A stretch of DNA of 64,000 nucleotides from an uncultured Veillonellaceae bacterium (GTDB lineage: Bacteria; Bacillota; Negativicutes; JARBTT01). The notes beneath the pieces were generated by a model. That model worked only from the letters and a program-made list of their open reading frames with translations, was not told the origin of the DNA and searched no databases. The stretch is taken from assembly GCA_963805085.1 (NCBI GenBank), contig CAWDTA010000003.1, positions 192,001 through 256,000 on the forward strand, written 5' to 3'. A program made the position numbers and the translations under genes. Below are positions 1 to 64,000 of the stretch, one piece after another (position 1 is the stretch's first letter; every line of letters begins with the position of its first letter).

Positions 1-1
1 G

Positions 2-3000
2 ATACAAGATAGAGCCTTTGAATCTGCAAAATATGATTATTTACCTCTTGCGAAAATACAAGCAGGTACTGAATTAAAGAGAGATTTAATAAATCATGTA
101 TTGATATATGAAAATATTCCTTTTGAAATAAAAAATAATGAAACAGAAAAAGGGACACAGTTTGATATTAAAGCATTCGAAATATCAGAGCAGACAAACT
201 ATAATTTTAATGTTTATGTGATGAGTATCGCAGGCATAGAGATGACTATCAAATTTACCTATAACAACAATATATACGACGAATATCAAGTAAAAAAGAT
301 AGAAGAACATTTCAAGAAGATACTGCAGCAAATAGCCGATAAGCCAGAAGAAAAAATATCATCAATCGAAATACTGTCTGATAGAGAAAAGGAACAAATA
401 CTTGATGAATTTAATAATACAAGAGAATATTATCCGAAAGATAAAACAGTCTATCAACTTTTCGAGGATCAAGTAAAGAAAACGCCGGATAATGTAGCAG
501 TAGTGTTTGAAGAAGATATACTTTCCTACAGACAATTAAATAATAGAGCCAACCAGCTTGCGAGGGTACTGCGAAAAAAAGGTGTGAAGTCAAATAGTAT
601 AGTTGGCATTATGGTAGAAAGATCTCTGGAAATGATCGTAGGTATCATGGGTATATTAAAAGCAGGAGGCACATATTTACCTATAAGTCCTGACTATCCG
701 GAAGAAAGAATATTGTATATGCTAGAGGATAGTAAAACTGACATCATCCTTACAGAGTCGAGCACGGCGCGTAGAATAGATTTTAAAGGCAAAAAATTTA
801 ATTTAGACAATGAGGCGCTGAATAAAGAAAAAACTGAAGATTTAGAAATGGCAGATAGCACATCTGATTTAGCTTATATAATGTATACATCAGGAACAAC
901 AGGAAAGCCAAAAGGAGTAATGATCCCTCATCAAGCATTGACGAATTTCCTCATTACCATGGGCAATAGACCTGGAATAAGTTCAAAAGATAAAATGCTA
1001 GCTGTAACAACATACTGTTTTGATATTGCTGGACTGGAATTATTCTTGCCTCTGATTAATGGTGCTCAATGCTGTATCTGTAGTACAGAAAAGACAAAAG
1101 ATGTGGAGAAGCTAAAACAAGAAATAAAAAGGGTAAAACCAACAATTATGCAAGCTACGCCGGTTACCTGGACAATGCTCTATCAGGCTGGATGGGAGAA
1201 TGAAGAAAAAACGAAAATCCTTTGTGGGGGCGAAGCACTTCCAGATAGATTAAAAAAATATTTTATTGATACCGGTAGTGATGTTTGGAATATGTTTGGT
1301 CCGACGGAGACAACTATTTGGTCGACTACTCAACAGATCAAAGAGAAAGAACCGATAAGTATTGGAAAGCCTATAGCAAATACGCAAATATATATACTGG
1401 ATAAGGATCTAAAACCTGCGCCGGTCGGTATTATGGGAGAATTATATATAGCAGGCGATGGGGTGGCTAGAGGGTATTTAAATAAACCAGAACTTACAGC
1501 AGAAAGATTCATTCAGAATCCTTTTAATGAAGAAACAAAACTCTATAAAACAGGCGATGTAGCCCGTTGGCTTTCCAATGGCAATATTGAGTTTATAGGA
1601 CGCATTGATCATCAAGTAAAGATACGAGGGTTCCGTATTGAATTGGGTGAAATTGAAAGCCAACTTAACAAGCATCAAGAGATAAAAGATAGTGTTGTAG
1701 TTGTGAAGGAACATGCAGGAATTAAACAGCTTGTAGCCTATTTTGTTCGAACCTATAATGATTGTAAGAACGAAGGCGAGGATAGGGCATTACTAGATGC
1801 ACAAATATTGCGTGACTATTTGCAAATGACTCTGCCTAACTATATGATTCCTGGAATGTTCGTGGAACTTGAAGCTATTCCCTTAACTTCCAATGAAAAG
1901 ATAGACAGAAAAGAATTAATGAGTCGAAAAATTGTGTTTACCGGGACTAAAAAAGAATCCCTTCCAAAATCAGCAATTGAAGAAAAAGTTTTAGAAATTT
2001 GGAAGGAAGTTCTTAATAGCGACGACATCAGTACAGAAGATGGGTTTTTTGAAGTGGGAGGAGACTCTTTTTCAGCAGTAAGTGTATCGGAAAAGATCAA
2101 GAATAATCTTAATTGCGATTTTAATGTAACGACATTATTTAAGTACTCCAATATTAAAGAAATCAGTAGATATATTACAGAAGTTAAAGAAAAAATTGCT
2201 GAATCTGCTGTAGAATCGAATGCGGGAACTGTCTTTGATGATTCCCATAAGGAGTCAATGTCTTTGAAAAAGGATGTAGAAGCACAAGTAATCCCTGATT
2301 ATTATGAAGAAAGTTTAGCCATTGTCGGCATTTCCTGTCAAGTCCCGGGAGCAAAAAACCATTATGAATTTTGGGGAAATTTAAGACAAGGTAAAGAAAG
2401 CACTAAATTTTTCACGAAAGAAGAACTTTACGCTTTTAGCCTGCCAGAAGAAATTGTTGAGAACCCTGACTATATTCCTGTGCAATCAGCAATAGAAGGA
2501 AAAGATCTGTTTGATCCGGGCTTCTTCAATATATCTCCCCGGGAAGTGGTATTAATGGATCCTCAAATGAGGAGCTTGCTGATTCATTCATGGAAAGCTC
2601 TGGAGGATGCGGGGTATGTTCCCGGACAGATTCCTGATACAAGTGTGTTTATGTCTGCAAGCAATAATTTTTATCAAGCATCAGCAATGACTCCTGCAAC
2701 ATTTCAAGTAACAAGAAATGTAAATGAATACATGGCTTGGATTTTGGGACAAGGCGGTACCATTCCCACCATGATTTCTTATAAACTAGGTTTAAAAGGA
2801 CCTAGTTTCTTTGTACATTCCAATTGTTCCTCAGCTTTAGCCGGATTATACTCAGCTTACCATAGTCTAATGTCGGGGGAAGTAAAGCATGCGCTGGTTG
2901 GAGCAGCCACCATATCGGCTGCGTCCAGCTTGGGGTATGTGCATCAACACGGATTGAATTTTTCCAGTGATGGACACATAAAAACCTTTGATGCTTCCGC

Positions 3001-5578
3001 CGATGGGATGATAGGAGGTGAAGGGGTTGCCGTTCTTCTACTTAAAAGAGCAGATGATGCAGTTAAAGATGGAGACCATATTTATGCTATTCTCAGAGGA
3101 ATTGGTATAAACAATGACGGGGCAGATAAAGTAGGCTTTTATGCTCCTAGTGTTAAAGGCCAGGTTGAGGTAATTGAAAAGGTATTGGATTCCAAAAAAA
3201 TTAATCCCGAATCAATTGGCTATGTTGAGGCTCATGGTACTGGAACAACAATAGGAGACTCTATAGAATTCGCTGCATTGAATGAAGTTTATCGAAAATA
3301 TACAACCCAAAAGCAATTTTGTGGACTGGGATCTGTTAAACCAAATATAGGACATTTAGACACTGCTTCAGGTTTGGCTGGATGTATCAAAGTTGCAATG
3401 ATTTTACAAAATAATGAAATTCCGCCATCAATAAATTATAGAGAACCAAATCCTATTTTTGAGTTAGATAAGTCACCATTTTATATTGTTAATAGACTTA
3501 AAAAATGGGAACAAAATACAGTTCCACATAGAGCAGCACTCAGCTCATTTGGCGTTGGTGGAACCAATACCCATGTAATCTTTGAACAATATCCGGTTGC
3601 TAAAGCATCGCCAAATATTGACCTAGGATATGAACCCAATAGTGTAGCTATTATTCCCCTATCTGCAAAAAATAATGATCGCCTTAAAGCCTACGCCAAA
3701 AAACTATTAGATTTTCTAAACAGGAATCCGAAAAATAAATCTGATGTCAATTTAATTGACTTGGCCTATACCTTTCAGGTAGGTAGAGAAGCAATGGATA
3801 GCAGAGTAATCTTTATTGTCAATAACATTGAAAAATTAACGGAAAATTTAAAAAGCTTCATCGATGGGAAAGAAGAAATCGAGGGGTGTTTCAGCGGCGA
3901 AAGAAAAGACGTACAAGATACTGCTAAATTATTGAAATTTGATGAAGATCCCAAAGAATTAATTGACAATTGGTTTGCAAAAGGAAATGTAGAAAAACTA
4001 GGTGAGCTTTGGGTTAATGGTCTGAATTTTGATTGGAATAAGCTATATGGCGATAATAAACCCCGCCGAATCAGCTTACCTACATATCCATTTACCGGTA
4101 GGCGCTACTGGATAACGGCAATAAATGCAGATGTTAACAATAAAATCAGAACTAAATCAATCGTTTCTACGATATCTGACAAACCAAACAGTATTTCTTT
4201 ACAATCTTTATCAAGTGATAAAATAAGTAAATCAGCTGAGCAAGTTGAGCCATCAGTTGCACTAGCGTCGACAAGTACTTTACGAGTACAACCAGAAAAC
4301 AGTTCCAAACCGGTGAGTTATAATCAAACAGCTAATATGGCGGAATCATTGCTAGAAACGCAATATGTAACGCAAAGTTCTGTTGAGCCAGCCGCCACTC
4401 CAGCACAGGTAAAGCAATCGCAGAGTTATATCTCAACAGAAACATTGCAGGAAGAGCTGACAACAAGTTTGGCAGAAGTTTTGTATATGGAACGGAATGA
4501 GGTCGATATTGACAAAAAATTCATTGATTTAGGTTTAGATTCGATTATCGGCGTAGAGTGGGTTAAGGTAATCAACAAACAATATGGCACAGCGATTCCG
4601 GCGACAAAAGTTTATGATTATCCTAGTATTCGCGAATTCACTGAATTCGTAGAATCAGAATTGAACAAACCAGGGGAGCAGTTGCTTAGCGATTCTTTGA
4701 CGACAGAGCAAGCAACGGAAAAAATCCAGATTCAAACCATTGAATTGCCGGCGACAGAAACAACAACTAGCAAGATGTCCACAGCTGAGCGAGTTGCCAC
4801 TCCAGCACAGGCAAAGCAATCGCAGAGTTATATCTCAACAGAAACATTGCAGGAAGAGCTGACAACGAGTTTGGCAGAAGTTTTGTATATGGAACGGAAT
4901 GAGGTCGATATTGACAAAAAATTCATTGATTTAGGTTTAGATTCGATTATCGGCGTAGAGTGGGTTAAGGTAATCAACAAACAATATGGCACAGCGATTC
5001 CGGCGACAAAAGTTTATGATTATCCTAGTATTCGAGAATTCACTGAATTCGTAGAAACAGAATTGAGCAAACCAGGGGAGCAGTTGCTTAGCGATTCTTT
5101 GACGCCAGATCAAGCAACGGAAAGAATCCAGATTCAAACCATTGAATTGCCGGCGACAGAAACAACAACTAGCAAGATGTCCACAGCTGAGCGAGTTGCC
5201 ACTCCAGCACAGGTAAAGCAATCGCAGAGTTATATCTCAACAGAAACATTGCAGGAAGAGCTGACAACAAGTTTGGCAGAAGTTTTGTATATGGAGCGGA
5301 ATGAGGTCGATATTAACAAAAAATTCATTGATTTAGGTTTAGATTCGATTATCGGCGTAGAGTGGGTTAAGGTAATCAACAAGCAATATGGCACAGCGAT
5401 TCCGGCGACAAAAGTTTATGATTATCCTAGTATTCGCGAATTCACTGAATTCGTAGAAACAGAATTGCATATTTCCACTCCAGCCATTTCCTTCGATGAA
5501 ATACTAAATCAAGTATATCAAGGAACTTTAGATGCTAAACTTGCTACTACCATCCTTCAACAGTTGAAGGAGAAATAA
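2..5578 (+). CDS. Hybrid NRPS/trans-AT PKS, 5'-partial: C (C-terminal part)-A (probably Gly)-PCP-KS-ACP-ACP-ACP (beta-branching type)
   Basis: The frame is open from base 2 (IQDRAFESAKYDYLPLAKIQ...), so the TTG at 101 is not the true start. A motifs: YTSGTTGKPKG, FDIAGLELFLP, NMFGPTETTIW, YKTGD. PCP GGDSF. KS SNCSS/HGTGT/GHLD. Three ACPs GLDSIIGVEW. The A-PCP-KS part resembles the Gly module and KS1 of bacillaene PksJ/BaeJ. Confidence 0.95.
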   Translation: MQDRAFESAKYDYLPLAKIQAGTELKRDLINHVLIYENIPFEIKNNETEKGTQFDIKAFEISEQTNYNFNVYVMSIAGIEMTIKFTYNNNIYDEYQVKKIEEHFKKILQQIADKPEEKISSIEILSDREKEQILDEFNNTREYYPKDKTVYQLFEDQVKKTPDNVAVVFEEDILSYRQLNNRANQLARVLRKKGVKSNSIVGIMVERSLEMIVGIMGILKAGGTYLPISPDYPEERILYMLEDSKTDIILTESSTARRIDFKGKKFNLDNEALNKEKTEDLEMADSTSDLAYIMYTSGTTGKPKGVMIPHQALTNFLITMGNRPGISSKDKMLAVTTYCFDIAGLELFLPLINGAQCCICSTEKTKDVEKLKQEIKRVKPTIMQATPVTWTMLYQAGWENEEKTKILCGGEALPDRLKKYFIDTGSDVWNMFGPTETTIWSTTQQIKEKEPISIGKPIANTQIYILDKDLKPAPVGIMGELYIAGDGVARGYLNKPELTAERFIQNPFNEETKLYKTGDVARWLSNGNIEFIGRIDHQVKIRGFRIELGEIESQLNKHQEIKDSVVVVKEHAGIKQLVAYFVRTYNDCKNEGEDRALLDAQILRDYLQMTLPNYMIPGMFVELEAIPLTSNEKIDRKELMSRKIVFTGTKKESLPKSAIEEKVLEIWKEVLNSDDISTEDGFFEVGGDSFSAVSVSEKIKNNLNCDFNVTTLFKYSNIKEISRYITEVKEKIAESAVESNAGTVFDDSHKESMSLKKDVEAQVIPDYYEESLAIVGISCQVPGAKNHYEFWGNLRQGKESTKFFTKEELYAFSLPEEIVENPDYIPVQSAIEGKDLFDPGFFNISPREVVLMDPQMRSLLIHSWKALEDAGYVPGQIPDTSVFMSASNNFYQASAMTPATFQVTRNVNEYMAWILGQGGTIPTMISYKLGLKGPSFFVHSNCSSALAGLYSAYHSLMSGEVKHALVGAATISAASSLGYVHQHGLNFSSDGHIKTFDASADGMIGGEGVAVLLLKRADDAVKDGDHIYAILRGIGINNDGADKVGFYAPSVKGQVEVIEKVLDSKKINPESIGYVEAHGTGTTIGDSIEFAALNEVYRKYTTQKQFCGLGSVKPNIGHLDTASGLAGCIKVAMILQNNEIPPSINYREPNPIFELDKSPFYIVNRLKKWEQNTVPHRAALSSFGVGGTNTHVIFEQYPVAKASPNIDLGYEPNSVAIIPLSAKNNDRLKAYAKKLLDFLNRNPKNKSDVNLIDLAYTFQVGREAMDSRVIFIVNNIEKLTENLKSFIDGKEEIEGCFSGERKDVQDTAKLLKFDEDPKELIDNWFAKGNVEKLGELWVNGLNFDWNKLYGDNKPRRISLPTYPFTGRRYWITAINADVNNKIRTKSIVSTISDKPNSISLQSLSSDKISKSAEQVEPSVALASTSTLRVQPENSSKPVSYNQTANMAESLLETQYVTQSSVEPAATPAQVKQSQSYISTETLQEELTTSLAEVLYMERNEVDIDKKFIDLGLDSIIGVEWVKVINKQYGTAIPATKVYDYPSIREFTEFVESELNKPGEQLLSDSLTTEQATEKIQIQTIELPATETTTSKMSTAERVATPAQAKQSQSYISTETLQEELTTSLAEVLYMERNEVDIDKKFIDLGLDSIIGVEWVKVINKQYGTAIPATKVYDYPSIREFTEFVETELSKPGEQLLSDSLTPDQATERIQIQTIELPATETTTSKMSTAERVATPAQVKQSQSYISTETLQEELTTSLAEVLYMERNEVDINKKFIDLGLDSIIGVEWVKVINKQYGTAIPATKVYDYPSIREFTEFVETELHISTPAISFDEILNQVYQGTLDAKLATTILQQLKEK
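4394..5468 (+). repeat. Tandem ~402-bp near-identical repeats (about 2.7 copies), each encoding a linker plus a beta-branching ACP
   Basis: gccactccagcacagg recurs at 4394, 4796 and 5198 (period 402 nt, 134 aa). Only scattered substitutions between copies. Confidence 0.95.
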
Positions 5579-5642
5579 AATATACACGGAGTATATTAGT
5601 AAAATCATCTACGTCAAGGATTTTCAAAGGAGGATTATTAAT

Positions 5643-11600: not shown

Positions 11601-13275
11601 ATTGAATCCCAATATTGATTTCGCCAATACCCCTTTTGTGGTTCAGCAAGAACTTACGGAATGGAAACGACCAGTGATTGAGCATGGTGGAGAAAAGAAA
11701 GAATATCCGCGAATTGCGGGCATATCGGCTTTTGGGGCGGGAGGAGCAAACGCCCATGTAGTGATTGAAGAATATATTCCCCAAGCAACGGAGCGACTTC
11801 AAATTGCAATTACCCCTCAGAATCCGGCAGTTATTGTTTTATCTGCCAAGCATGAAGATCGACTTCAAGAACAGGCACAACAATTATTAGAAGCAATCCG
11901 TGAACAGCAATTTTTAAACTTGGCTGATATGGCTTATACACTCCAGATTGGCCGTGAAGCAAAGGAAGAGCGTCTGGCCGTGGTTGTGGAATCAATCAAA
12001 CAACTTGAAGAAAAATTGGACAATTTCGTGAAAGGTCAGGATGATATTGAAGATCTTTATCGGGGGCAGGTCAAGCAAGATAAAGAAATGACAGCTTTAT
12101 TTACTGAAGATGAAGATATGACAAAAACGATCGACGCATGGATTGCTAAAGGAAAGTATGCGAAGCTTCTCGACCTATGGGTCAAAGGATTGTCATTTGA
12201 TTGGAACAAGCTGTATGGTGATACAAAACCTCATCGCATCAGTTTACCTACTTATCCATTTCTCAGGGACAGCTATTGGTTTCCAGAGTTTGAGATGAAA
12301 TTTGTTAGTGGAACGGAAGGGGCAGCCTTAGTAGGGAATACTCAACCAATTCCATCATCAGTCTCGCAAGAATCTTTGAAAATCAGCACCGTACAGCAAG
12401 GAATGACTATATCTAATATGTCTGATAAACCCCATGGTATCTCTTTACGATCTTTGTCAGACAACTCAAGATTAACAACTAACCCAGCGGGGCAAAACTT
12501 GCAATCGGTTCAATTAATGCCAACAGATATCCCTTCAGTTTCAGTGAGTAATATTTCACAGCCAATCAATGAGGCTGAACCTATGATAAATGTTCAAACA
12601 GCTGGTTCGGTGGAAATTTTACGGGAAGAATTGGCAACAAGCTTAGCGGAAGCCTTGTATATGAAGCCGAACGACATAGATCTTGATACAAAATTTATTG
12701 ATTTGGGGATGGATTCAATTATCGGCGTGGAATGGATTCAGACAATTAATAGTCGCTATGGAACTTCGATTGCAGCAACAAAAGTTTATGATTATCCGAC
12801 TATTAATGAATTCGCTAGTCATTTGGAAGCAAAACTTGCTAAACAAGGGAACAAAATCGTAAGTAATACAATGGTTTCGCTACCAAGTCTTCAGACATCT
12901 GAGCCAAGTGTCATCAAACCGCAGGTAAAACCAAAGCAATCAGTGGAAGCTTTACAGGAGGAACTGGCAACAAGCTTAGCGGAAGCTTTGTATATGAAGC
13001 CGAGCGACCTAGACATTGATACAAAATTTATTGATCTGGGGATGGATTCGATTATCGGCGTGGAATGGATTCAGACGATTAATAGTCGCTATGGAACTTC
13101 GATTGCAGCAACAAAAGTTTATGATTATCCGACTATTAATGAATTTGCTAAATTTATGGAAAAAGAATTGAGTAAATCAATTCCATCTCTTTCCTTGCAG
13201 GAAGTGCTGCAACAATTACAAAAAGGGACATTAGATAGGGATCAGGCGGATAAACTATTAAACCAAATTATGTAA
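5643..13275 (+). pseudogene. trans-AT PKS KS-DH-KR-ACP-KS-ACP-ACP, interrupted as read by 5 indels in the second KS (probably an intact gene with sequencing errors)
   Basis: AGGAGG RBS before ATG 5643. KS TACSSS/HGTGT/GHTSAAAG, DH DHVVQGQRVLPG...HPSLLDSALQ, KR GGAGGLG/GQADY, ACP GIDSIM. The second KS continues through ORF pieces 10378, 10653, 11041 and 11407 with frame changes near 10610, 10648, 11098, 11199 and 11360. It ends with two GMDSIIGVEW ACPs and a stop at 13275. Confidence 0.85.
12628..13150 (+). repeat. Duplicated beta-branching ACP coding sequence (2 copies, 333 bp apart)
   Basis: gaa(t/c)tggcaacaagcttagcggaagc at 12628 and 12961. Both ACPs read ...FIDLGMDSIIGVEWIQTINSRYGTSIAATKVYDYPTINEFA. 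Confidence 0.9.
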
Positions 13276-15361: not shown

Positions 15362-15365
15362 TATT

Positions 15366-36604: not shown

Positions 36605-36681
36605 CCTTTATAAAGATTCGACTGCCATTTTGCTGGGTAAAGTACCATGTCCAGCATGTGTTAGAAGGGGGAGAAATAGAA

Positions 36682-55860: not shown

Positions 55861-58800
55861 ATGATATATGAAACGTTTAATCTATCTACAAAAAACCCTA
55901 TTATAAGTAATCACAGTGCATATGGACAAGAGTTGTTGCCTGGTCTAGCTTATATCGATCTTATATTCCAATTCTTTAAAAAGCATTATTATTCTTATAA
56001 TGAGTTTGAACTGCGTAATTTGTCTATATATAACCCGTTAATTGTTGGAAAGAATTATGATGTTCTGCTTACCCTTCAGTGTTCGGAAATCAGAGAGGGG
56101 CAATGGCATATTGTTGTGGAGGGGCAAGAACGACGCAATGATGGAACCGTAGTCTTGAATAAAAAACGGTATGTTACTGCTGAAATGCATAAAATAGGTT
56201 CCGTAATATTTGGTGAAACCTTAGATCTTAATCAAATAGAACACTTGGCAAAGAGCGTTGGCAGCTTAGACGAAGTTTACGAGCAATGCCAGCTTCAAGA
56301 CTTGGTACATACTGGTTTGATGAAAGCAGAAGGTAAGATTTACGAGGGCGAGACAGCGAGCTTCATTGATATTTCACTAGGGCAGGAGGCGCAGCCCGGT
56401 GCAGAAAGTTTTCTGTTTCACCCGGCCCTTATTGATGGCAGTGCCATAGGATCGAGGACACTGTTGTCCGCCCTAGTCAAAGGGGAAGAACGCTTGTTTT
56501 TACCTCTTTTCTACGAATCCTTTCGTGCCTCAGAACTCATACAACAACGATGTTTAACGCGGATTCAAACGTCAGCGTTGGTGCGTAAAAAAGAGCTTTT
56601 GTATATGACGATGGAATTTTTTAATGAATCCGGCAAGAAAGTGGCGGAATTGAGAAATTTTATCAGTAAATTAGTTCGAGGCGCCGAATTAATTAATCCT
56701 AACCTAAAAAACACGTTTCAAATGGAGGCAGCGAATTTCAGCCGATCTTTATTGACCAGTTTCCAAGAGCCGAGCAATGTGGAGAATGACCTCAACCTAG
56801 TAACGACTGCTGAAACTGAATTTTTTTTACAGCAGTTGATGGCAGATCGATTAAAGAAACCAATAGAGCAAATCGAAACTCAGGTTGGATATTATGAAAT
56901 GGGATTGAATTCACCTGGATTATTGGAGATTGTCCAAGAGATAGAAACAAAAATTGGTGTTGCCTTATCCCCAACGTTATTGTTTGAATATACGACCATT
57001 GCTGAACTGTCAGCCTATCTTACCGAGAATTACCCCTCAAAGTTTAGACAATACTCTGCTGTGACGCGGGAGGTTGAACAGGAGATGCTGGGTAACGCAA
57101 CTGCGCAAGCTCCCAGTACGGATAGTGAGGTAGGGAATGGCGTGTTATCGAACGATAATACGGAAGAAGGACGAGCTGCAGCAATGCCTGCAATCGAGCA
57201 AGACATTGCCATTATAGGAATGGCGGGACGCTATCCAAAAGCAATAAACCTTCAGGAATTTTGGACTAATTTAAAAACGGGCAAAGACTGTATCAGTGAA
57301 ATTCCAAAATCACGTTGGGATTGGAAATTGTATGAAGGGGTAAAATCACCCTCAGGAAAAAACATCTCTAAATGGGGTGGCTTTATAGATGATCCGGACT
57401 GCTTTGATCCTCAATTCTTTCGAGTAACACCGCGGGAAGCAGAATTAATGGATCCTCAAGAGCGTTTGTTTTTGGAGAATTGTTGGGAAGCAATAGAAGA
57501 TGCTGGTTATACGCCTAAAACGCTGGTTATGCCGCAAGGTCCTAATAAAAGGCACCATGTAGGTGTATTTGTTGGTGTAATGCATAAAGATTATACCCAA
57601 ATCGGAGCCGAAGCTGCGTTACATGGTCAGGTAGTTCCGTTATCATTGAATTATGCGTCAATTGCCAATCGGGTCTCTTATTTCTGCAATTTTCATGGCC
57701 CTAGCATGGCGGTAGATACGGTGTGTTCTTCTTCGCTTACTGCCGTGCATTTGGCTTTAGAGAGTATCAGGCATGGTGAATGCGAGGTTGCTCTGGCAGG
57801 CGGAGTGAATTTATCCTTACATCCCAATAAATATCTAACCTATGGGTTAATGGATATGCATTCCAGCGATGGTTATTGTCATACCTTCGGCAAAGAAGGC
57901 GATGGTTTTGTTTCAGGAGAAGGCGTTGGTACGGTTCTGTTAAAGCCGCTACACAAAGCGGTTCAAGACGGGGATCACATTTATTCGGTCATTAAAGGCA
58001 GTACCATCAATCATGGGGGAACTGTGAGCGGGATGACGGTACCAAGTCCGATTGCTCAGGCAGATATGATTACGGCATGTATAAAAAAAGCCAAGGTTCA
58101 TCCACGGACGATCAGCTATGTCGAAGCCCAGGGGACAGGAACGTCATTAGGTGATCCTATTGAAATTGAAGGGTTAGCGAAAGCCTTTCGTCTATATACT
58201 CAGGATTTACAATATTGTTCAATTGGTTCCGTTAAGTCAAATATCGGGCATGCTGAGTCCGCTGGAGGCATTGGTGCTTTGACTAAGGTAGCACTCCAAC
58301 TTTACTATAAAACCTTGGTACCATCACTGCATTCAGAGAAATTAAATCCGCATATAGATTTTAAACAGTCCCCGTTTTTTGTACAGCAGGAAACCGAGGA
58401 ATGGAAGAAGCCAGTATTGGTGGAAGATGGTAGACAGGTCATCTATCCTCGTCGGGCTGGGCTAAATTCTTATGGTGCTACTGGATCAAACGCTCATGTC
58501 ATACTGGAGGAATACATCCCCAAACAAACGCGCCAACAAAATCTGGCAGTGCTCAGTAAAAATGACAGTCTCACAATCATTCCGCTTTCTGCTAAGGACA
58601 AAGAGCGGCTGCACGCGTATGTTAAGAAATTATTGGAGTATCTTAAAGAATTTCCGTCAGACAAGAATCTTTATCATGGAGAAATCAATATATCAGAATT
58701 AGCTTATACCTTGCAGGTGGGACGAGAATCCATGGAAGATCGGGTAGTATTTCTCGTAAAGGATATTCCACAGCTCATTGAAAAATTAGAAGCATATGGT

Positions 58801-61416
58801 GAAGGTAAGGAAGTGATCAATAATTGTTGGTGGGGAGATGGCAAGCACAGCAAAGAAACAATAGATCTCTTAAATGATCAAGAATCTCTGGATTTGATTA
58901 ATAAATGGATGATAAACGGCAAGACCCAAAAAATTGCGGAATTGTGGGTAAAAGGTTTTGCGATAGATTGGAATCTGTTTTATAGAGACACTAAGCCTTG
59001 CCGCATTAGTCTGCCTACTTATCCATTTGCTAGGGAGCGCTATTGGGTGACCGAGAACAGGAGTGGGTCTGACGGCAGCAACATAACTAGACTCAAGCAA
59101 CAGAACGGAACAGAAGCCCTAAAAACACTTGATACTCAAGAAGAAATCAAAGCAGTACCGGCTATTGAACAAGATGGGGTTCAGGAAAAAGCCGCCAATT
59201 ACTTCAAAAAGCTGCTGGCTCCCGTTTGCAAGCTGCCGATATACCGCATTGAAGCGGATGTGCAATTGGAACAATACGGGGTCGATTCTATCATGGGCAT
59301 GCAAATGATCAAGAAATTAGAAAAACTATTTGGATCATTACCTAAAACTTTAATATTTGAATACAAAACCATTAAAGATTTAACCGGATATTTTTTGGAG
59401 AACTATCGTGACCGATTGACAGAACTGTGGGGAATTGAGGATAAAGCAGCAGTCGCCGCCGAAGATTCTCAGGATTCAAAAAATTGGACAGAACCGGAAA
59501 AACTAGCCTTTGGCACTCGCCGACGTCCACTACGTTTTGCATCACTTCGTATGAAACCTCAGGATAAAAAAGCGTCCATGGATATTGCCATTATTGGTGT
59601 GTCCGGACGCTATCCCCAAGCGGGTAATATTCAGGAATTTTGGAACAACTTGCAAGGCGGTACTGATTGTATTACCGAAATCCCTAAAGACCGCTGGAAT
59701 CATAGCTTGTACTTCGATGAAGATAAGAACAAGCCAGGAAAAACTTCTTGTAAGTGGGGAGGCTTTATAGAAGATGTAGATCAATTTGATCCGCTTTTTT
59801 TCAATATCGCATTGCAGGAGGCAGAGATTATGGATCCTATGACTCGTCTTTTTTTGGAGACCGTTTGGAATTTATTTGAAGATTCAGGATATACGCGAGA
59901 GACTCTAGAGCGTGAATATCAATCCAGGGTTGGAGTTTATGTTGGTGCAATGTATCAGCAATATCATTGGTTTCATTCAGATATTATTAGAGAATCGGCA
60001 ATCTCTTTATCTTCTTATAGCTATCTTGCAAATAAAATTTCTCATTATTTTAATCTCCAAGGCCCTAGCATAGCTATTGATACCATGTGTTCATCTTCTG
60101 CCATTGCGATTCATATGGCTTGTGAGAGTTTGATAAAGGGAGATTGTCAGATGGCCATTGCCGGAGGCGTAAATCTTTCGATTCATCCGAAGAAATACTT
60201 GGCATTAAGCCCTACGCATCTACTTGCCAGCCAGATTAACAGCAGAAGTTTTGGAGATGGAGACGGGTATCTTCCTGCAGAAGGTGTTGGCGCCGTATTA
60301 TTAAAACCGCTTACGAATGCCATTCGAGATCGGGATTTAGTCCTGGCTGTAATAAAATCGACAGCAACTAATCATGGTGGGGCTAGCGCATATGGTGTCC
60401 CCAACCCGGATATACAAGCACGATTGATTGAGGAGAATTTTATAAAAGCGGAGATCAACCCTCGAACGATCAGTTATGTTGAAGCTTTTGCTGTTGGATC
60501 GCCATTAGGGGATCCGATTGAGGTCACCGCTTTAAATAAAGCCTTTCAGAAATTCACGACTGACCAGCAATTTTGTGCGATTGGCTCGGTAAAATCCAAT
60601 ATTGGTCACGCCGAAGCGGCTTCAGGGATTTCTCAATTGACTAAAGTGGTATTACAATTACAGAATAAAAAGTTAGTTCCTTCCATTAAAGCAGATCCTC
60701 TGAATCCCAATATAAATTTCGAGAATACTCCATTTTACCTACAGCGAGAACTCCAAGAATGGAAACGGCCTGTGGTAAAGATCGATGGCGAAGAACGTGA
60801 GTATCCTAGGCGGGCAACGGTGAGCTCCTTTGGGGGGGGCGGATCAAATGTGCATTTGATTGTCGAAGAATATATTTCAGGGCAAGAAAAAACAGTTCAT
60901 ACCAGCGCGGCAACCTCGCCTCAGATTGTGGTCTTTTCAGCAAAGAAACGTGATCAATTGCAGGTTGTTGTCGAGCAAATGCTTGAATTTATTAAACTGC
61001 AAAAGGAGCTTATTTTGCCTGATTTTGCTTATACCCTCCAAGTAGGGCGCGAAGCAATGGAATATCGGTTAGCAATGGTAGTGAATAACCGGGAAGAGCT
61101 AATTCAGGGGCTGAAGGAGTCTTTAGAATCATTTGAGGAAGGCAAGGAAACAGAAAAATTTATACCCAGTTTTACAGGAAATCTGGAAGTAGATCTTTTG
61201 AATATTAAGAGGCTGTTTTCCGGAAATTTAGGGGAGACCATGGTTAAAATGTTGGTGGAAGAAAAGAACCTTGAGAAAATCGCACTCTATTGGGCTCAAG
61301 GAGGTAAAATTCCATGGAAATCACTCCATGAAGGCCAGGAAGTCCGTAAGATATCCTTGCCAACCTATCCTTTTAAGAAACAACGCTGTTGGATCGAATC
61401 TCAGCCCGAGTTATAA
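55861..61416 (+). CDS. trans-AT PKS: DH-ACP-KS0(H>Q)-ACP-KS0
   Basis: AGGAGG RBS overlaps the upstream stop. PksL-type N-terminal DH HSAYGQELLPG...HPALIDGS. ACP GLNSPG. KS TVCSSS but EAQGTGT (CAG at 58129). ACP GVDSIM. KS TMCSSS but EAFAVGS (~60481). The protein ends LPTYPFKKQRCWIESQPEL. Confidence 0.93.
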   Translation: MIYETFNLSTKNPIISNHSAYGQELLPGLAYIDLIFQFFKKHYYSYNEFELRNLSIYNPLIVGKNYDVLLTLQCSEIREGQWHIVVEGQERRNDGTVVLNKKRYVTAEMHKIGSVIFGETLDLNQIEHLAKSVGSLDEVYEQCQLQDLVHTGLMKAEGKIYEGETASFIDISLGQEAQPGAESFLFHPALIDGSAIGSRTLLSALVKGEERLFLPLFYESFRASELIQQRCLTRIQTSALVRKKELLYMTMEFFNESGKKVAELRNFISKLVRGAELINPNLKNTFQMEAANFSRSLLTSFQEPSNVENDLNLVTTAETEFFLQQLMADRLKKPIEQIETQVGYYEMGLNSPGLLEIVQEIETKIGVALSPTLLFEYTTIAELSAYLTENYPSKFRQYSAVTREVEQEMLGNATAQAPSTDSEVGNGVLSNDNTEEGRAAAMPAIEQDIAIIGMAGRYPKAINLQEFWTNLKTGKDCISEIPKSRWDWKLYEGVKSPSGKNISKWGGFIDDPDCFDPQFFRVTPREAELMDPQERLFLENCWEAIEDAGYTPKTLVMPQGPNKRHHVGVFVGVMHKDYTQIGAEAALHGQVVPLSLNYASIANRVSYFCNFHGPSMAVDTVCSSSLTAVHLALESIRHGECEVALAGGVNLSLHPNKYLTYGLMDMHSSDGYCHTFGKEGDGFVSGEGVGTVLLKPLHKAVQDGDHIYSVIKGSTINHGGTVSGMTVPSPIAQADMITACIKKAKVHPRTISYVEAQGTGTSLGDPIEIEGLAKAFRLYTQDLQYCSIGSVKSNIGHAESAGGIGALTKVALQLYYKTLVPSLHSEKLNPHIDFKQSPFFVQQETEEWKKPVLVEDGRQVIYPRRAGLNSYGATGSNAHVILEEYIPKQTRQQNLAVLSKNDSLTIIPLSAKDKERLHAYVKKLLEYLKEFPSDKNLYHGEINISELAYTLQVGRESMEDRVVFLVKDIPQLIEKLEAYGEGKEVINNCWWGDGKHSKETIDLLNDQESLDLINKWMINGKTQKIAELWVKGFAIDWNLFYRDTKPCRISLPTYPFARERYWVTENRSGSDGSNITRLKQQNGTEALKTLDTQEEIKAVPAIEQDGVQEKAANYFKKLLAPVCKLPIYRIEADVQLEQYGVDSIMGMQMIKKLEKLFGSLPKTLIFEYKTIKDLTGYFLENYRDRLTELWGIEDKAAVAAEDSQDSKNWTEPEKLAFGTRRRPLRFASLRMKPQDKKASMDIAIIGVSGRYPQAGNIQEFWNNLQGGTDCITEIPKDRWNHSLYFDEDKNKPGKTSCKWGGFIEDVDQFDPLFFNIALQEAEIMDPMTRLFLETVWNLFEDSGYTRETLEREYQSRVGVYVGAMYQQYHWFHSDIIRESAISLSSYSYLANKISHYFNLQGPSIAIDTMCSSSAIAIHMACESLIKGDCQMAIAGGVNLSIHPKKYLALSPTHLLASQINSRSFGDGDGYLPAEGVGAVLLKPLTNAIRDRDLVLAVIKSTATNHGGASAYGVPNPDIQARLIEENFIKAEINPRTISYVEAFAVGSPLGDPIEVTALNKAFQKFTTDQQFCAIGSVKSNIGHAEAASGISQLTKVVLQLQNKKLVPSIKADPLNPNINFENTPFYLQRELQEWKRPVVKIDGEEREYPRRATVSSFGGGGSNVHLIVEEYISGQEKTVHTSAATSPQIVVFSAKKRDQLQVVVEQMLEFIKLQKELILPDFAYTLQVGREAMEYRLAMVVNNREELIQGLKESLESFEEGKETEKFIPSFTGNLEVDLLNIKRLFSGNLGETMVKMLVEEKNLEKIALYWAQGGKIPWKSLHEGQEVRKISLPTYPFKKQRCWIESQPEL

Positions 61417-61549
61417 AAAATATATATTCCTAAAACCTATCCTTCAAAAATGATCCAACCCTAAAGAGAGAGGAGGTGAGGTTTTTTTATGGCCTCGTAA
61501 TCTTTCAAAACAAGTATTGTCTTTAAAACATTAGGAAGGGAGAGAAGCA

Positions 61550-62299
61550 ATGATGAAATCTGCAGTTGATTTACGTGAGGTCGAACCGGGCATTGTTCAA
61601 ATGACAATGCAAGACCGAGTTAATAAAAATACGTTGTCCTATGAATTGTCCATGGGCCTGATTGAAGCATTTAAATCTATTCAAGATAATTCAAGTTATA
61701 AGGTGGTGATCTTAACCGGATACGACAGCTACTTTTGTACCGGCGGAACTCAAGAAGGTTTATTATCCATATTTGAAAATAAAACAAGTTTTACCGATGT
61801 TAATCTCTATAGTCTTGCATTGGAGTGTAAAATACCTGTAATTGCTGCGATGCAAGGGCATGGAATTGGTGGTGGATTTGCTCTAGGCTTATATGCTGAT
61901 TTTGTGGTTTTGAGCAGGGAAAGTGTTTATAGCACTAATTTTATGAAATATGGCTTTACGCCAGGAATGGGGGCAACTTACATTGTGACTAAGAAACTAG
62001 GATTTAGTTTGGGAGAGGAAATGTTATTAAATGCTGGTACTTTCCGCGGAGCGGAACTTGAAAAACGGGGAATTTCATTTCCTGTATTACCACGGGAAAA
62101 AGTTATGGCTTATGCGCTTGAGTTGGCGCAACAGCTAGCTGAAAAACCAAGATTTTCATTAATCACATTAAAGGATCATCTGGTAGCTCCCCTTCGAAAA
62201 GAATTACCTGAAATTATTGAAAAAGAGATCATAATGCATGATAAGACGTTTCATCAGCCAGAGGTTAAAGATCGAATTAACACATTATTTGGAAAGTAG
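61550..62299 (+). CDS. pksI: Free-standing enoyl-CoA hydratase ECH2 (methylglutaconyl-ACP decarboxylase, PksI family)
   Basis: MQDRVNKNT, GYDSYFCTGGTQEGL, MQGHGIGGG, NFMKYGFTPGMGAT, MHDKTFHQPEV. Confidence 0.93.
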   Translation: MMKSAVDLREVEPGIVQMTMQDRVNKNTLSYELSMGLIEAFKSIQDNSSYKVVILTGYDSYFCTGGTQEGLLSIFENKTSFTDVNLYSLALECKIPVIAAMQGHGIGGGFALGLYADFVVLSRESVYSTNFMKYGFTPGMGATYIVTKKLGFSLGEEMLLNAGTFRGAELEKRGISFPVLPREKVMAYALELAQQLAEKPRFSLITLKDHLVAPLRKELPEIIEKEIIMHDKTFHQPEVKDRINTLFGK

Positions 62300-62357
62300 T
62301 GGTGCGAATGAGAGATTTACAGTAAACTTCAATTTATTGAGGAAGGAGATTATACGT

Positions 62358-63212
62358 GTGCTTAATCTAAAAGCAAAAAATCAACCTGTCAAAGCGGCTC
62401 CTAAAAAGTATGCGCGTAGCATATGGTTAATTACATGTCTTTTTGGAGTAATCATGTTAGGGGCAGGTTGTGCTTCACGCGATGGCAAGGAGTACCAGAA
62501 AACCTTTTCTATAGAACCAGGAACTGTTCTGCAGATTTACAACAAAAATGGAGATATTGATGTAAGCAGTTGGGATCATGATTATGTTGAAGTAGCTCTC
62601 AAGCCCAACGATTGGTTTACTAGTTTCCTGAAGGGGTTCTTGAAAGAGCCAAGTATTGATGTTACAGAAGGTAATGAATTTGTTATCCGGACTCTTTATA
62701 ATACGGGATTATCCAAGATTATTCCCGTACGGTATCGGATCTCAGTGCCCAAAAAAATGTTGGTTACACATGTGGAAACCTCCATCGGGAAAATCAATGT
62801 AGAAAATGTGTCGGGGGATGTCGACGCCAAAACATCCATAGGTGAAATTCAAATCCATAAAGTGAGCGGTTTCGTTAAGGCCGTAACCAGTAATGGTAAC
62901 ATTGATATTACTGAGGTAGGCGGATTATACGAAGCATGTAATGATATAGGGGGGATTTCAGTAGAGGTTCCGGCTATTCGAGAAAACATGGAGATAAGAT
63001 CCCAAGTCGGCAGCGTTACAGTTTCCCTTTCTTCGGATATTGTTGCACAACTGGAGGCAAGTACCTCCATCGGAAGTATTGCTTATACCGATTTGCCGTT
63101 AAGTGTAAGCGAATCAGCTAAAACAAGGCTGACCGGGAGCCTTGGAGAAGGCAGTAATAGAATAAAAATTGAAAATTCTGTGGGCTCTATAACCTTGAAG
63201 AAGCTGTTATGA
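62358..63212 (+). CDS. Putative lipoprotein, DUF4097/adhesin-like beta-strand repeat family
   Basis: GTG start after GAGGAAGGAG. Lys-rich N-region, hydrophobic stretch and lipobox-like LGAG-C. Repeated (T/N)S(I/N/V)G.I.(V/I) units. Family call is by motif recognition only. Confidence 0.7.
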   Translation: MLNLKAKNQPVKAAPKKYARSIWLITCLFGVIMLGAGCASRDGKEYQKTFSIEPGTVLQIYNKNGDIDVSSWDHDYVEVALKPNDWFTSFLKGFLKEPSIDVTEGNEFVIRTLYNTGLSKIIPVRYRISVPKKMLVTHVETSIGKINVENVSGDVDAKTSIGEIQIHKVSGFVKAVTSNGNIDITEVGGLYEACNDIGGISVEVPAIRENMEIRSQVGSVTVSLSSDIVAQLEASTSIGSIAYTDLPLSVSESAKTRLTGSLGEGSNRIKIENSVGSITLKKLL

Positions 63213-63296
63213 TATGCAATTTTAGTAATTGGCTTGATGATCAAGGGGGATAATTCAGAAACAACAAGTCACTTGTACTTGGAAAAATTCCCAAAG

Positions 63297-63305
63297 TGCT
63301 ATGAT
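63297..63305 (+). promoter_or_regulatory. Possible extended -10 promoter (TGcTATGAT) upstream of the KS-decarboxylase gene
   Basis: TG-n-TATGAT about 30 nt upstream of ATG 63334. No -35 box at 17-nt spacing. Confidence 0.3.
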
Positions 63306-63333
63306 TTGGATAGAACTAAAGGAGGATTAACCA

Positions 63334-64000
63334 ATGTGTAATATGAAAAATCAAGATCAGTCTGAGCTAGTTATTACTGGTATTGGGATTACTTCAGCTA
63401 TTGGTCAAGGAAAAAAAGCTTTTACCTCTGCTTTGATGCAAGGGCAGCACGCTTTTGGAGTAATGCAACGGCCCTATCGACAAAATGGAACAGCTTTTAT
63501 TGGTGCTGAGATACCTGATTTATCCTATCCGGAGAGTATTTCTAAAAAGGTACTGCGAACAGCATCATTTTCGAGTCAAGTGGCTTTGGCCACTATTCAT
63601 GAAGCTTGGGAAGAAGCAAATTTGGATGCAGTGGATCCAAAGCGTATTGGATTAATAGTTGGAGGATCCAACATACAGCAACGAGAGTTGATAAAAACCT
63701 ATGAAAGCTATAAAGATCGTCCTCACGTTATACGGCCAACTTATGGAATGACTTTTATGGACAGTGATTTATGTGGGCTTTGTACAGAACATTTTGGAAT
63801 TCGAGGTTGTGCATATACGTTGGGCGGCGCTTCGGCTAGTGGACAGCTGGCGATTCTACAAGCAGCACAAACCATTGAAACAGGTCAAGTGGATGTATGC
63901 ATTGCTGTGGGAGCCTTGATGGATATTTCTTACTTGGAATGCCAGGCATTAAGGTCTTTAGGTGCTATGGGGACAGATCAATATGCCAATGAGCCAGCGC
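63334..64000 (+). CDS. pksF: Free-standing KS-type malonyl-ACP decarboxylase of the beta-branching cassette (PksF family), 3'-partial
   Basis: Absent from the ORF track because it has no stop in the window. AGGAGG RBS, then MCNMKNQDQSELVITGIGITSAIGQG...RIGLIVGGSN...FMDSDLCG...TLGGASASGQLA. The active-site Cys is replaced by Ser (TCG at 63832). Confidence 0.92.
   Translation, partial: MCNMKNQDQSELVITGIGITSAIGQGKKAFTSALMQGQHAFGVMQRPYRQNGTAFIGAEIPDLSYPESISKKVLRTASFSSQVALATIHEAWEEANLDAVDPKRIGLIVGGSNIQQRELIKTYESYKDRPHVIRPTYGMTFMDSDLCGLCTEHFGIRGCAYTLGGASASGQLAILQAAQTIETGQVDVCIAVGALMDISYLECQALRSLGAMGTDQYANEPA

What the first reader, a model, noticed from the sequence alone, without database searches (positions are those of the whole stretch)
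1..64000. Apparently uncharacterised FAAL-primed trans-AT PKS/NRPS assembly line, with the initiation half encoded downstream of the termination half
Seen: the only loading domain (FAAL-ACP, 24431) lies downstream of the only TE (ends 24023). The FAAL line ends in a bare KS0 (61416) with no release domain, while the TE line starts in NRPS modules off the left edge. The beta-branching genes are split between the halves: pksG/pksH sit in the first half and pksI/pksF follow the second, although only the first half has Trp-flagged branching ACPs. Inference: this is one non-colinear pathway, acyl starter -> 6 ketide extensions -> peptide (ending X-Gly) -> 4 extensions with two beta-branches -> TE, giving a lipo-polyketide-peptide-polyene. 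The architecture does not match bacillaene, difficidin, macrolactin or kalimantacin as I know them.
Basis: partly seen in the sequence, partly recalled or inferred. Interest (0 to 1): 0.85.

Follow-up and report, generated by a model that had tools for sequence, protein, structure and literature searches.

The report
Orphan two-line trans-AT polyketide supercluster
The window is most of a very large, uncharacterised polyketide-peptide antibiotic-type gene cluster from an uncultured bacterium, built from two assembly lines, one of which has lost its own release domain and may now feed the other.

Summary
The window holds most of an orphan trans-AT PKS/NRPS cluster of about 104 kb (C3:154242-257902), which starts 36 kb upstream of the window. 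The FAAL-ACP gene starts 408 bp after the only TE gene. The FAAL line ends in an ACP-less, non-elongating KS. HMGS and ECH1 sit in the TE line. A free ECH2, a PksF-type KS, an AT and an ACP follow the FAAL line. Only five ACPs, all in the TE line, carry the Trp flag.

Corrections:
- The TE line does not start in NRPS modules. It starts with a KS-first PKS gene that has no loader, followed by 7 KS and then Thr-Ser-Gly.
- One KS (window 10446-11365) is frameshifted. This is almost certainly an assembly error.

Comparative result: a complete relative genome (G060) has the same two lines, but there the FAAL line ends in its own KS0-ACP-TE. A Pelosinus MAG (G006) probably does too. The "initiation half" therefore descends from a self-contained line that lost modules and its ACP-TE.

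The single non-colinear pathway remains the best reading here (about 0.45). Two separate products is a serious rival (about 0.3). No characterised match was found; MIBiG could not be run. This is a new member of a known kind, of moderate interest.

The parts
2..5578 (+). 3' part of gene g08 (whole gene C3:191036-197578): (C)-A(Gly)-PCP-KS-ACP-ACP-ACP. The three ACP serines are near 4541, 4943 and 5345, and all are Trp-flagged. This is beta-branch site 1.
   Evidence: Pfam. Domain map. The specificity code read is D-I-L-Q-L-G-M-I-W-K; the assignment to Gly is recalled. Trp flag.
5643..13275 (+). Gene g09/g10: KS-DH-KR-ACP-KS-ACP-ACP. It reads as three ORFs in this assembly (5643-10646, 10653-11141, 11407-13275). 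The two ACP serines are near 12715 and 13048, both Trp-flagged. This is beta-branch site 2.
   Evidence: The orthologues are single ORFs of 2565 aa in L061 and 2548 aa in G006.
10446..11365 (+). Patch of 10 small indels relative to L061, giving five frame changes inside an otherwise intact C-H-H KS. This is most likely an assembly error.
   Evidence: In this patch dN/dS is 0.10. rpoB and rpoC of the same assembly are also split across frames.
13329..14585 (+). HMG-CoA-synthase-like enzyme (PksG type).
   Evidence: Pfam. NCBIfam (best hit HMG-CoA-S_prok, below cut-off). 89% identical in G006.
14576..15361 (+). ECH1 (PksH-type dehydratase).
   Evidence: Pfam. NCBIfam PRK07112, 416 bits against a cut-off of 250.
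15309..24023 (+). Gene g13: ECH2-KS-DH-KR-ACP-KS0-ACP-TE. The TE is at about 23178-24017 and has a GYSLG serine.
24431..36604 (+). Gene g14: FAAL-ACP-KS-KR-ACP-KS-DH-KR-ACP-KS0. The ORF is open from 24374.
   Evidence: The best NCBIfam hits are fatty-acid--AMP ligases, all below cut-off.
36658..55848 (+). Gene g15: DH*(Asp->Asn)-ACP-KS-DH-KR-ACP-KS-KR-ACP-KS-DH-KR-ACP-KS-KR-ACP-KS0.
55861..61416 (+). Gene g16: DH-ACP-KS(His->Gln)-ACP-KS0. The terminal KS0 is at about 59575-60690. The protein ends 7 residues after the flanking-subdomain motif, with no ACP, TE or docking tail.
   Evidence: The relative P0002 has the same end plus an extra DH. G060 protein B4 is the long form with ACP-TE.
61550..62299 (+). 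Free-standing ECH2 (PksI type).
   Evidence: Pfam. NCBIfam PRK07110, 388 bits against a cut-off of 215.
62238..63212 (+). DUF4097 / LiaG-like protein with a hydrophobic N-terminal segment. Its role is unknown.
   Evidence: It is conserved next to the cluster in G006 (two copies) and G060 (two genes).
63334..64000 (+). 5' part of the PksF-type decarboxylating KS (active-site Cys->Ser). The gene ends at window 64572. A FabD-type AT (64703-65557) and an AcpK-type ACP (about 65654-65902) follow, outside the window.

Best explanation
The window is the 3' 64 kb of an orphan trans-AT PKS/NRPS supercluster of about 104 kb (C3:154242-257902). The host is an uncultured bacterium whose kin place it in the class Negativicutes. 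The cluster has two co-oriented assembly lines that share one FabD-type AT, one PPTase and one beta-branching cassette.

Line B (g14-g16) is primed by a FAAL-ACP with a fatty acid and makes six malonyl extensions. Their order is OH, ene, shifted ene, ene, OH, ene, ene. It ends in two non-elongating KS, and the last one has no carrier or release domain.

Line A (g03-g13) starts with a KS and has no loader. It makes five extensions (OH, then four enes), adds Thr, Ser and Gly, and then makes four more extensions. Two HMGS-type beta-branches are installed on Trp-flagged tandem ACPs. A KS0-ACP-TE releases the chain.

Shown: the domain content, motifs, gene order, homologues and selection.

Inferred: in this genome line B hands its chain to the first KS of line A. 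That would give one lipo-polyene-tripeptide-polyketide with 15 extensions. The arrangement would be a secondary merger of two ancestral lines, because relatives keep a KS0-ACP-TE on line B.
For: Extent and parts:
- There is only one loader, one TE and one intact AT. An AT remnant covering 53 of 319 profile positions lies upstream of g03.

KS, ACP and DH motifs:
- Of 21 intact modular KS, 7 lack the HGTGT His. The broken KS keeps C/H/H, so 15 of 22 KS are elongating.
- The Trp flag is on 5 of 28 carrier domains, all in line A after Gly.
- Specificity codes were read. Their meaning is recalled.
- A metagenome protein (P0244) has the Thr and Ser modules fused in that order, at 91% and 90% identity.
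- DH motifs: the first DH of g03 has His->Tyr, and the N-terminal DH* of g15 has Asp->Asn.

Independent support for the gene order and gene ends:
- L061 (96.3% identity over 33 kb) has TE followed by FAAL and an intact g09/g10.
- P0002 ends at the same KS0 as g16.
- The g03 orthologue in G006 starts at the same Met and is KS-first. G060 protein A1 is also KS-first.

Both lines are under purifying selection against L061. dN/dS is 0.17-0.19 for g09/g10 and g13, 0.25 for the FAAL gene and 0.34 for the 5' end of g15. A TE-less line B is therefore still in use and needs an outlet, and line A lacks a loader.
Against: - In G060 the orthologous FAAL line is complete: four genes ending KS0-ACP-TE. G006 has a matching ...KS-ACP-TE at a contig start. 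The two lines can therefore work without a covalent hand-off, and line A runs without a visible loader there too.
- The terminal KS0 of g16 has no ACP after it, and g03 has none before its KS. A KS0-to-KS transfer has no precedent that I know of.
- g16 lacks the C-terminal tail that the other KS-ending subunits carry.
- The first KS of g03 is not in the clade of this cluster's enoyl-accepting KS. Its nearest paralogue, at only 49%, is the KS that follows FAAL-ACP.
- The tail of line B looks reduced compared with relatives: KS His->Gln, loss of KR, DH, about 17 kb of modules and the ACP-TE. That would also fit decay.
Confidence: 0.45

Rival explanations
1. There are two separate products, or two chains joined only after release. 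Line A is primed on its own, for instance with acetyl-ACP made by the PksF-type KS and the AcpK-type ACP. Line B is released in trans, for instance by the MBL-fold hydrolase g01 or by slow hydrolysis.
For: G060 keeps a TE on each line, and its line A is KS-first with no loader. G006 appears to be the same. In G060 the PksF-type KS gene lies 1.6 kb upstream of the first line-A gene, the nearest cluster gene listed on that side. An MBL-fold gene is conserved at the head of the cluster in G000 and G060. The first KS of g03 is nearest to the starter-accepting KS, although only at 49%.
Against: Line B in G000 and in P0002 has no release domain, yet it is intact and under purifying selection. No second loader, free C domain or second TE exists in C3:144-272 kb. 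The A-plus-B pairing is kept in three families, which suggests a functional link.
Confidence: 0.3
2. Line B is a decaying relic in this lineage, and only line A makes a product.
For: The tail of line B shows stepwise reduction: an elongating KS in G060 becomes His->Gln here, the KR is lost, the DH is present in P0002 but lost in G000, about 17 kb of modules is missing and the ACP-TE is missing.
Against: About 37 kb of line-B ORFs have no stop or frameshift. dN/dS against L061 is 0.25-0.34, not about 1. The FAAL, ACP and six C-H-H KS motifs are intact.
Confidence: 0.1
3. The cluster belongs to an already characterised compound family (bacillaene, difficidin, macrolactin, kalimantacin or another MIBiG entry).
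For: It shares generic parts with bacillaene-type clusters: PksB-, PksF-, PksG-, PksH-, PksI- and AcpK-like genes and polyene-forming modules.
Against: No curated NCBIfam pathway model is reached by any of the 14 proteins scanned. The best Bacillus velezensis hit to g16 is 55% identical over half of the query. Only 3 of 301 genomes of the class have the FAAL at E<=1e-100. The four paper searches aimed at a known product found no product for such a cluster. MIBiG itself could not be searched.
Confidence: 0.05

Closest known systems
Homologous superclusters in G060 (a complete genome; proteins on a contig of the same length are named Methylomusa anaerophila by their source) and G006/L020 (record titled as an uncultured Pelosinus sp. 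MAG)
   Same: Both have a KS-first line A. It contains a DH-ACP-KS0-ACP subunit, C-A-PCP subunits, tandem Trp-flag ACPs (read in G060 only), HMGS, ECH1 and a last gene with ECH2 fused to it that ends in a TE. DUF4097 genes and a FAAL-primed line B follow, all on one strand. Protein identities to G000 are 50-89%.
   Different: Line B ends in KS0-ACP-TE. This is contiguous in G060 and only inferred for G006. Line A is longer in G060. They have one NRPS module fewer, and the last gene of line A is ECH2-KS-ACP-TE without the extra module. The accessory genes sit in other places, and G060 also has a trans-ER.
Bacillaene synthase (pksX/bae) of Bacillus (features recalled, not tested)
   Same: It is a trans-AT PKS/NRPS hybrid with polyene-forming DH-KR modules, KS0-DH modules and a beta-branching cassette of AcpK, PksF, PksG, PksH and PksI plus an MBL-fold PksB. 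NCBIfam models of these accessory types are hit above cut-off here.
   Different: It has no FAAL loader, different amino acids, one beta-branch, colinear genes and a single line. Only domain-level similarity is seen, 55% over half of g16.
Curacin/jamaicamide-type beta-branching layout (recalled)
   Same: Tandem ACPs are followed by HMGS, ECH1 and an ECH2 fused to the N-terminus of the next synthase.
   Different: Those are cis-AT cyanobacterial lines. Here the line is trans-AT, has two branch sites and has an extra free ECH2.
Enacyloxin chain release by a C-terminal KS0 (Masschelein et al. 2019; I saw the title only, in the reference list of PMC13324335; the mechanism is recalled)
   Same: A synthase subunit ends in a non-elongating KS that has to pass the chain to another polypeptide.
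   Different: Enacyloxin uses a free PCP plus a free C domain. No free C domain is present here, and the only free carrier matches the AcpK-type model PRK07117.

Membership tests
trans-AT modular PKS | Multimodular synthases whose modules lack integrated AT domains | tested here: met
   No Acyl_transf_1 hit in any of the 11 megasynthase ORFs. RhiE-like KS linkers are present throughout.
trans-AT modular PKS | Free-standing AT encoded in the cluster | tested here: met
   The 284-aa protein at C3:256703-257557 scores 384.8 bits on TIGR00128 (fabD), against a cut-off of 260.9. It has a GHSLG motif.
HMGS beta-branching cassette | Donor ACP, Cys-less KS, HMGS, ECH1 and ECH2 | tested here: met
   PRK07117 ACP, PRK07103 KS with Cys->Ser, PRK07112 ECH1 and PRK07110 ECH2 (two copies, one fused to g13) are all above cut-off. 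HMGS is found by Pfam only.
HMGS beta-branching cassette | Acceptor ACPs carrying Trp six residues after the Ser (rule recalled from Haines et al. 2013) | tested here: met
   5 of 28 carrier domains carry it, in two tandem sets.
FAAL-ACP loading module | An adenylating domain of the fatty-acyl-AMP-ligase type directly followed by an ACP at the N-terminus of a synthase | tested here: inconclusive
   The four best full-length single-enzyme NCBIfam hits are fatty-acid/fatty-acyl-AMP ligase models (299-356 bits), but all are below their cut-offs. The ACP serine is at residue 644. The substrate was not tested.
   There is no ACP after the g16 KS0, none before the g03 KS, and no docking tail on g16. 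Orthologous lines carry their own TE.
Enacyloxin-type KS0 transacylation release | A free PCP plus a free C domain that take the chain from the terminal KS0 | tested here: not met
   No free C domain among the ORFs scanned by Pfam or by domain seeds, nor among the other ORFs of 50 aa or more read by eye, in C3:150-264 kb. The one free carrier is AcpK-type.
Bacillaene, difficidin, macrolactin or kalimantacin BGCs | The same module order and the same loader | not testable with these tools
   No MIBiG, antiSMASH or TransATor was available. No curated pathway model is reached. The mismatch in module order is recalled only.

The most novel reading that the evidence does not exclude
Two ancestrally separate trans-AT assembly lines have merged into one in this lineage through loss of the upstream line's ACP-TE. 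The chain would now cross from a subunit ending in an ACP-less KS0 to a KS-first subunit. That would be a hand-off mode not described for modular PKSs, and a natural example of assembly-line fusion by domain loss.
Probability: 0.2. Interest if true: 0.7.

Novelty: new member of a known kind. Interest (0 to 1): 0.45.

Why it matters
Negativicutes and other anaerobes have almost no characterised modular polyketides. The two paper searches that named Negativicutes or Pelosinus returned 5 papers, and none of the listed titles or abstract openings names a trans-AT product from the class. The one relevant hit was a type III PKS paper, of which I saw the abstract only. This cluster family is present in 3 of 301 sampled genomes of the class. 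It encodes a very large lipo-polyene-peptide-polyketide, or a pair of them.

One relative appears to be a complete, named genome, so the chemistry could be tested. Comparing the three versions gives a natural series: module loss, a DH indel between 96%-identical proteins, an exact 3.8-kb module duplication, and loss of a release domain. That series bears on how assembly lines evolve and might be re-joined.

Orphan trans-AT clusters and non-colinear gene order are both common, so the interest is moderate rather than high.

Tried and rejected
- Public reads: the two runs found held only 5-6% of the sampled words. Their contigs covered 9884-10395 only, not the frameshift patch, so they say nothing about it.
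- Complex prediction of the g16 KS0 tail (residues 1230-1851) with the g03 N-terminus (residues 1-75) gave no answer (score 0.19, mark 0.34).
- G039, which had many KS hits, turned out to hold an unrelated trans-AT PKS without FAAL or NRPS.
- G001 (same genus, 84% complete) gave only weak KS-level hits and no FAAL match.
- I considered that the Thr and Ser modules (g06, g07) act as parallel alternatives. Their C domains are 99% identical, their first 35 residues are identical, and they have similar tails. I rejected this as the leading reading because P0244 has them fused in series.
- I considered that the broken KS is a real pseudogene. I rejected that because the indels cluster in 920 nt of a cluster of about 104 kb, dN/dS there is 0.10, rpoB and rpoC are broken in the same way, and two relatives have the KS intact.
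- TE identities (64-73% in all pairs) could not tell whether the g13 TE is of the line-A or line-B type.
- The tree of the cluster's own KS domains did not place the first KS of g03 clearly.
- Paper PMC6774797 is not held. No supplements were read. I did not read the transPACT paper (PMC7930024, seen as a listing only), and it may list these clusters.
Full report
**Where the window lies.** The window is G000:C3:192001-256000 in a 4.21-Mb, 5-contig assembly with 37-39% G+C. All large ORFs in the window are on the + strand. The cluster region is 36-46% G+C.

The PKS genes run well beyond the left edge. ORF listing of the flanks, Pfam scans and a domain map made with the cluster's own domains as seeds give the following order.

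| Gene | Position (C3) | Content |
|---|---|---|
| efflux genes | 148665-152970 | TolC-like OEP, HlyD adaptor, MacB-type ABC efflux |
| transposase fragment | 153323-153853 (- strand) | ISL3 fragment |
| g01 | 154242- | MBL-fold hydrolase |
| g02 | 155477- | PPTase |
| AT remnant | 156391-156663 | 53 of 319 Acyl_transf_1 profile positions |
| g03 | 156788-167992 | KS-DH-KR-ACP-KS-DH-KR-ACP-KS |
| g04 | 167940-180563 | DH-KR-ACP-KS-DH-KR-ACP-KS-KR-ACP-KS |
| g05 | 180524-184132 | DH-ACP-KS-ACP |
| g06 | 184134-187478 | C-A-PCP |
| g07 | 187670-191017 | C-A-PCP |
| g08 | 191036-197578 | C-A-PCP-KS-ACPx3 |
| g09/g10 | 197643-205275 | KS-DH-KR-ACP-KS-ACPx2 |
| g11 | 205329-206585 | HMGS |
| g12 | 206576-207361 | ECH1 |
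| g13 | 207309-216023 | ECH2-KS-DH-KR-ACP-KS-ACP-TE |
| g14 | 216374-228604 | FAAL-ACP-KS-KR-ACP-KS-DH-KR-ACP-KS |
| g15 | 228658-247848 | five KS |
| g16 | 247861-253416 | DH-ACP-KS-ACP-KS |
| g17 | 253550-254299 | ECH2 |
| g18 | 254238-255212 | DUF4097 |
| g19 | 255334-256572 | PksF-type KS |
| g20 | 256703-257557 | FabD-type AT |
| g21 | within the ORF at 257639-257902 | 83-aa ACP |

5-oxoprolinase-type genes follow g21. The core is therefore about 104 kb and the window holds its last 64 kb.

- KS active sites. An alignment of 21 intact modular KS shows that 7 lack the HGTGT histidine. These are the last KS of g14, g15, g04 and g16, the KS of g05, the second KS of g13, and the first KS of g16 (His->Gln). 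g19 has Ser in place of the active-site Cys.
- Carrier domains. Of 28 inspected, five have Trp six residues after the serine: the three of g08 and the two of g10.
- Accessory genes. NCBIfam places g12, g17, the g13 N-terminus, g19, g20 and g21 above the curated cut-offs of the PksH-, PksI-, PksF-, FabD- and AcpK-type models. The FAAL domain hits fatty-acid--AMP ligase models best, but below cut-off.
- Other domains. Pfam found no methyltransferase, ER or aminotransferase domain.

**The broken KS.** The KS between the g09 ACP and the g10 ACPs is read in three ORFs with five frame changes, although its Cys, HGTGT and NIGH motifs are intact.

- Against an independent metagenome contig (L061, 96.3% identical over C3:197282-230369), G000 has 10 small indels within 10446-11365. 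Every other indel in the 33 kb is intergenic or in frame.
- The orthologue is one ORF of 2565 aa in L061 and of 2548 aa in G006.
- Substitutions in this patch are strongly biased to synonymous changes: dN/dS 0.10, dS 0.50.
- The same assembly has rpoB and rpoC split over several frames, and its estimated completeness is only 83%.

I conclude that the break is an assembly artefact. Public reads did not cover it.

**What the two lines should make.** The domain and motif facts below are shown. The chemistry drawn from them is inferred.

Line B:
1. FAAL-ACP loading.
2. KS-KR, giving a beta-OH.
3. KS-DH-KR, giving an ene.
4. KS0 plus a DH whose Asp is Asn. I recall this pattern from double-bond-shifting modules.
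5. KS-DH-KR.
6. KS-KR.
7. KS-DH-KR.
8. KS-KR followed by KS0-DH. I recall this as a dehydrating bimodule.
9. KS(Gln)-ACP.
10. KS0.

This is six extensions.

Line A:
1. KS with a DH whose His is Tyr, plus KR, giving a likely beta-OH. The next KS is 96% and 86% identical to the two KS that follow KR-only modules.
2. Three KS-DH-KR modules.
3. KS-KR followed by KS0-DH.
4. KS0-ACP.
5. Three NRPS modules.
6. KS-ACPx3, the first beta-branch.
7. KS-DH-KR.
8. KS-ACPx2, the second beta-branch, with an ECH2 in cis.
9. KS-DH-KR.
10. KS0-ACP-TE.

The specificity residues read from an alignment are:
- g06: D-F-W-N-I-G-M-V-H-K
- g07: D-V-W-H-F-S-L-I-D-K
- g08: D-I-L-Q-L-G-M-I-W-K

From memory these are the Thr, Ser and Gly codes.

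g06 and g07 share 99%-identical C domains, an identical first 35 residues and similar tails. That raised the idea of parallel use. A metagenome protein of 2215 aa (P0244) is g06 fused to g07, at 91% and 90% identity, which supports serial Thr-Ser.

**Relatives.**
- A scan of species genomes with the FAAL-ACP returned 23 loci. Pelosinus is in the class Negativicutes, and G006 is "same class" as G000.
- On that contig the order is g05-like, C-A-PCP-(C-like), C-A-PCP-KS-ACPs, KS-DH-KR-ACP-KS-ACPs, HMGS, ECH1, ECH2-KS-ACP-TE, ECH2, DUF4097 x2, PksF-KS, then the FAAL gene. The FAAL gene therefore lies after the TE gene there too.
- The g03 orthologue of G006 lies on another contig. It starts at the same Met, is KS-first, and has an intact AT gene upstream.
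- In a sample of 301 genomes of the class, 3 have the FAAL at E<=1e-100: G000, G006 and G060.

**The decisive comparison.** G060 is a one-contig genome. Its contig length equals that of the contig carrying proteins whose source names them Methylomusa anaerophila. Its region reads, in order:
- MBL, PPTase, AT, an AT remnant fused to a trans-ER, AT, PksF-KS.
- Line A: a KS-first gene of 5126 aa; a gene of 9220 aa; a g05-like gene; C-A-PCP; C-A-PCP-KS-DH-KR-ACP-KS-ACPx3; HMGS; ECH1; ECH2-KS-TE.
- Small genes and two DUF4097 genes.
- Line B, in four adjoining or slightly overlapping genes: FAAL (4453 aa), then 3428 aa, 5056 aa and 7955 aa. The last ends in KS0-(ACP)-TE.

Tiled comparison shows the following.
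- g14 and g15 are collinear with B1-B3.
- g16 residues 1-1000 match the start of B4, and residues 1072-1851 match its last ACP-KS0. g16 is therefore B4 minus about 17 kb of internal modules and minus the ACP-TE.
- The first KS of B4 has HGTGT in G060, but Gln in G000 and in P0002.
- P0002 is 96% identical to g16. It still has a whole DH that g16 lacks, and it ends at the same residue.
- The KS0 of g16 and the KS0 before the g13 TE are 81% identical to each other. They are 79-84% identical to the line-B terminal KS0 of G060 and to the KS0 of a "...KS-ACP-TE" ORF at the start of G006 contig C12.

**How it most likely works here.** In G000 line B has no release domain and line A has no loader. 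No second loader, TE or free C domain exists within C3:144-272 kb.

Both lines are under purifying selection relative to L061:

| Gene | dN/dS |
|---|---|
| g09/g10 | 0.17 |
| g13 | 0.19 |
| g14 | 0.25 |
| g15 5' end | 0.34 |
| HMGS | 0.05 |
| ECH1 | 0.06 |

A TE-less line B is therefore being maintained and needs an outlet. The simplest outlet is the first KS of line A. That would give one chain of 15 extensions, a fatty-acyl starter and Thr-Ser-Gly.

I give this 0.45. The physical path is unexplained: there is no ACP after the KS0, none before the g03 KS, and no docking tail on g16. A fold test gave no answer. The relatives also show that both lines can carry their own TE while line A still has no loader.

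The main rival (0.3) is two products, with line A primed independently and line B released in trans. A decaying line B gets 0.1. A known compound family gets 0.05.

**Comparison with what is known.** No curated pathway model was reached by the 14 proteins scanned. The best Bacillus velezensis hit to g16 is 55% over half of its length.

The four paper searches aimed at a known product found no product assigned to such a cluster or to any Negativicutes trans-AT PKS. I saw listings and abstracts only. A fifth search was for the enacyloxin KS0 mechanism. From PMC13324335 I saw passages on docking domains and the title of the enacyloxin KS0 paper.

MIBiG, antiSMASH and TransATor were not available, so "uncharacterised" is not proven.

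**Verdict.** The cluster is real, large and orphan. The single-pathway reading is possible but weaker than stated, and it is best seen as a derived merger of two lines. Novelty: a new member of a known kind. Interest: 0.45.

Noticed in passing
G000:C4:95473-103128: rpoB and rpoC of this assembly are each split over several reading frames with internal stops. The assembly therefore carries local patches of indel errors, and its estimated completeness is 83%.
   Followed up: partly
G000:C3:168779-172582 and 173294-177097 (upstream of the window): A 3804-bp tandem repeat at 99.95% identity duplicates a whole DH-KR-ACP-KS module inside g04. It could be a very recent module duplication or an assembly effect.
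   Followed up: no
G000:C3:184121-185914 and 187657-189450: The 5' 1.8 kb of the Thr and Ser NRPS genes, including 13 nt upstream of each start, is 97.3% identical, while their A domains are only 53% identical. A metagenome protein (P0244) has the two genes fused.
   Followed up: partly
window 58.9-59.2 kb (g16, between the first KS linker and the second ACP): A protein from another MAG (P0002), 96% identical to g16, has a complete 307-aa DH domain inserted here that G000 lacks. This is an in-frame domain indel between very close relatives.
   Followed up: yes
G000:C3:156391-156663: A remnant of an AT gene (the first 53 of 319 profile positions) lies directly upstream of the KS-first gene g03. 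G006 has an intact AT at the same place, and G060 has ATs and a trans-ER upstream of line A.
   Followed up: partly
G000:C3:148665-153853: A TolC-like outer-membrane protein, an HlyD adaptor, a MacB-type ABC efflux pump and an ISL3 transposase fragment lie just upstream of the cluster. They could serve export or self-resistance, and the outer-membrane protein fits a diderm host.
   Followed up: no
G000:C2:1121000-1135500, C2:1491000-1496800 and C2:1051414-1053132: Further KS-containing loci and a second FAAL-like gene (37% identical) lie elsewhere in the genome.
   Followed up: no
window 10000-12000 compared with the rest of 5-38 kb: Divergence from L061 is mosaic. dS is about 0.50 in the KS patch, 0.12-0.17 over the window part of line A, and 0.045 in the FAAL gene. 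This suggests recombination between lineages inside the cluster.
   Followed up: partly
G060:C1:4480001-4521400 (locus L063-L065): Another trans-AT PKS cluster, with an AT-containing 762-aa gene, begins about 12 kb after the line-B TE gene in G060.
   Followed up: no
window 1-64000: The cluster is 36-46% G+C in 4-kb windows (40-46% in all but the first), against 37-39% for the contigs. That is compatible with horizontal acquisition.
   Followed up: no
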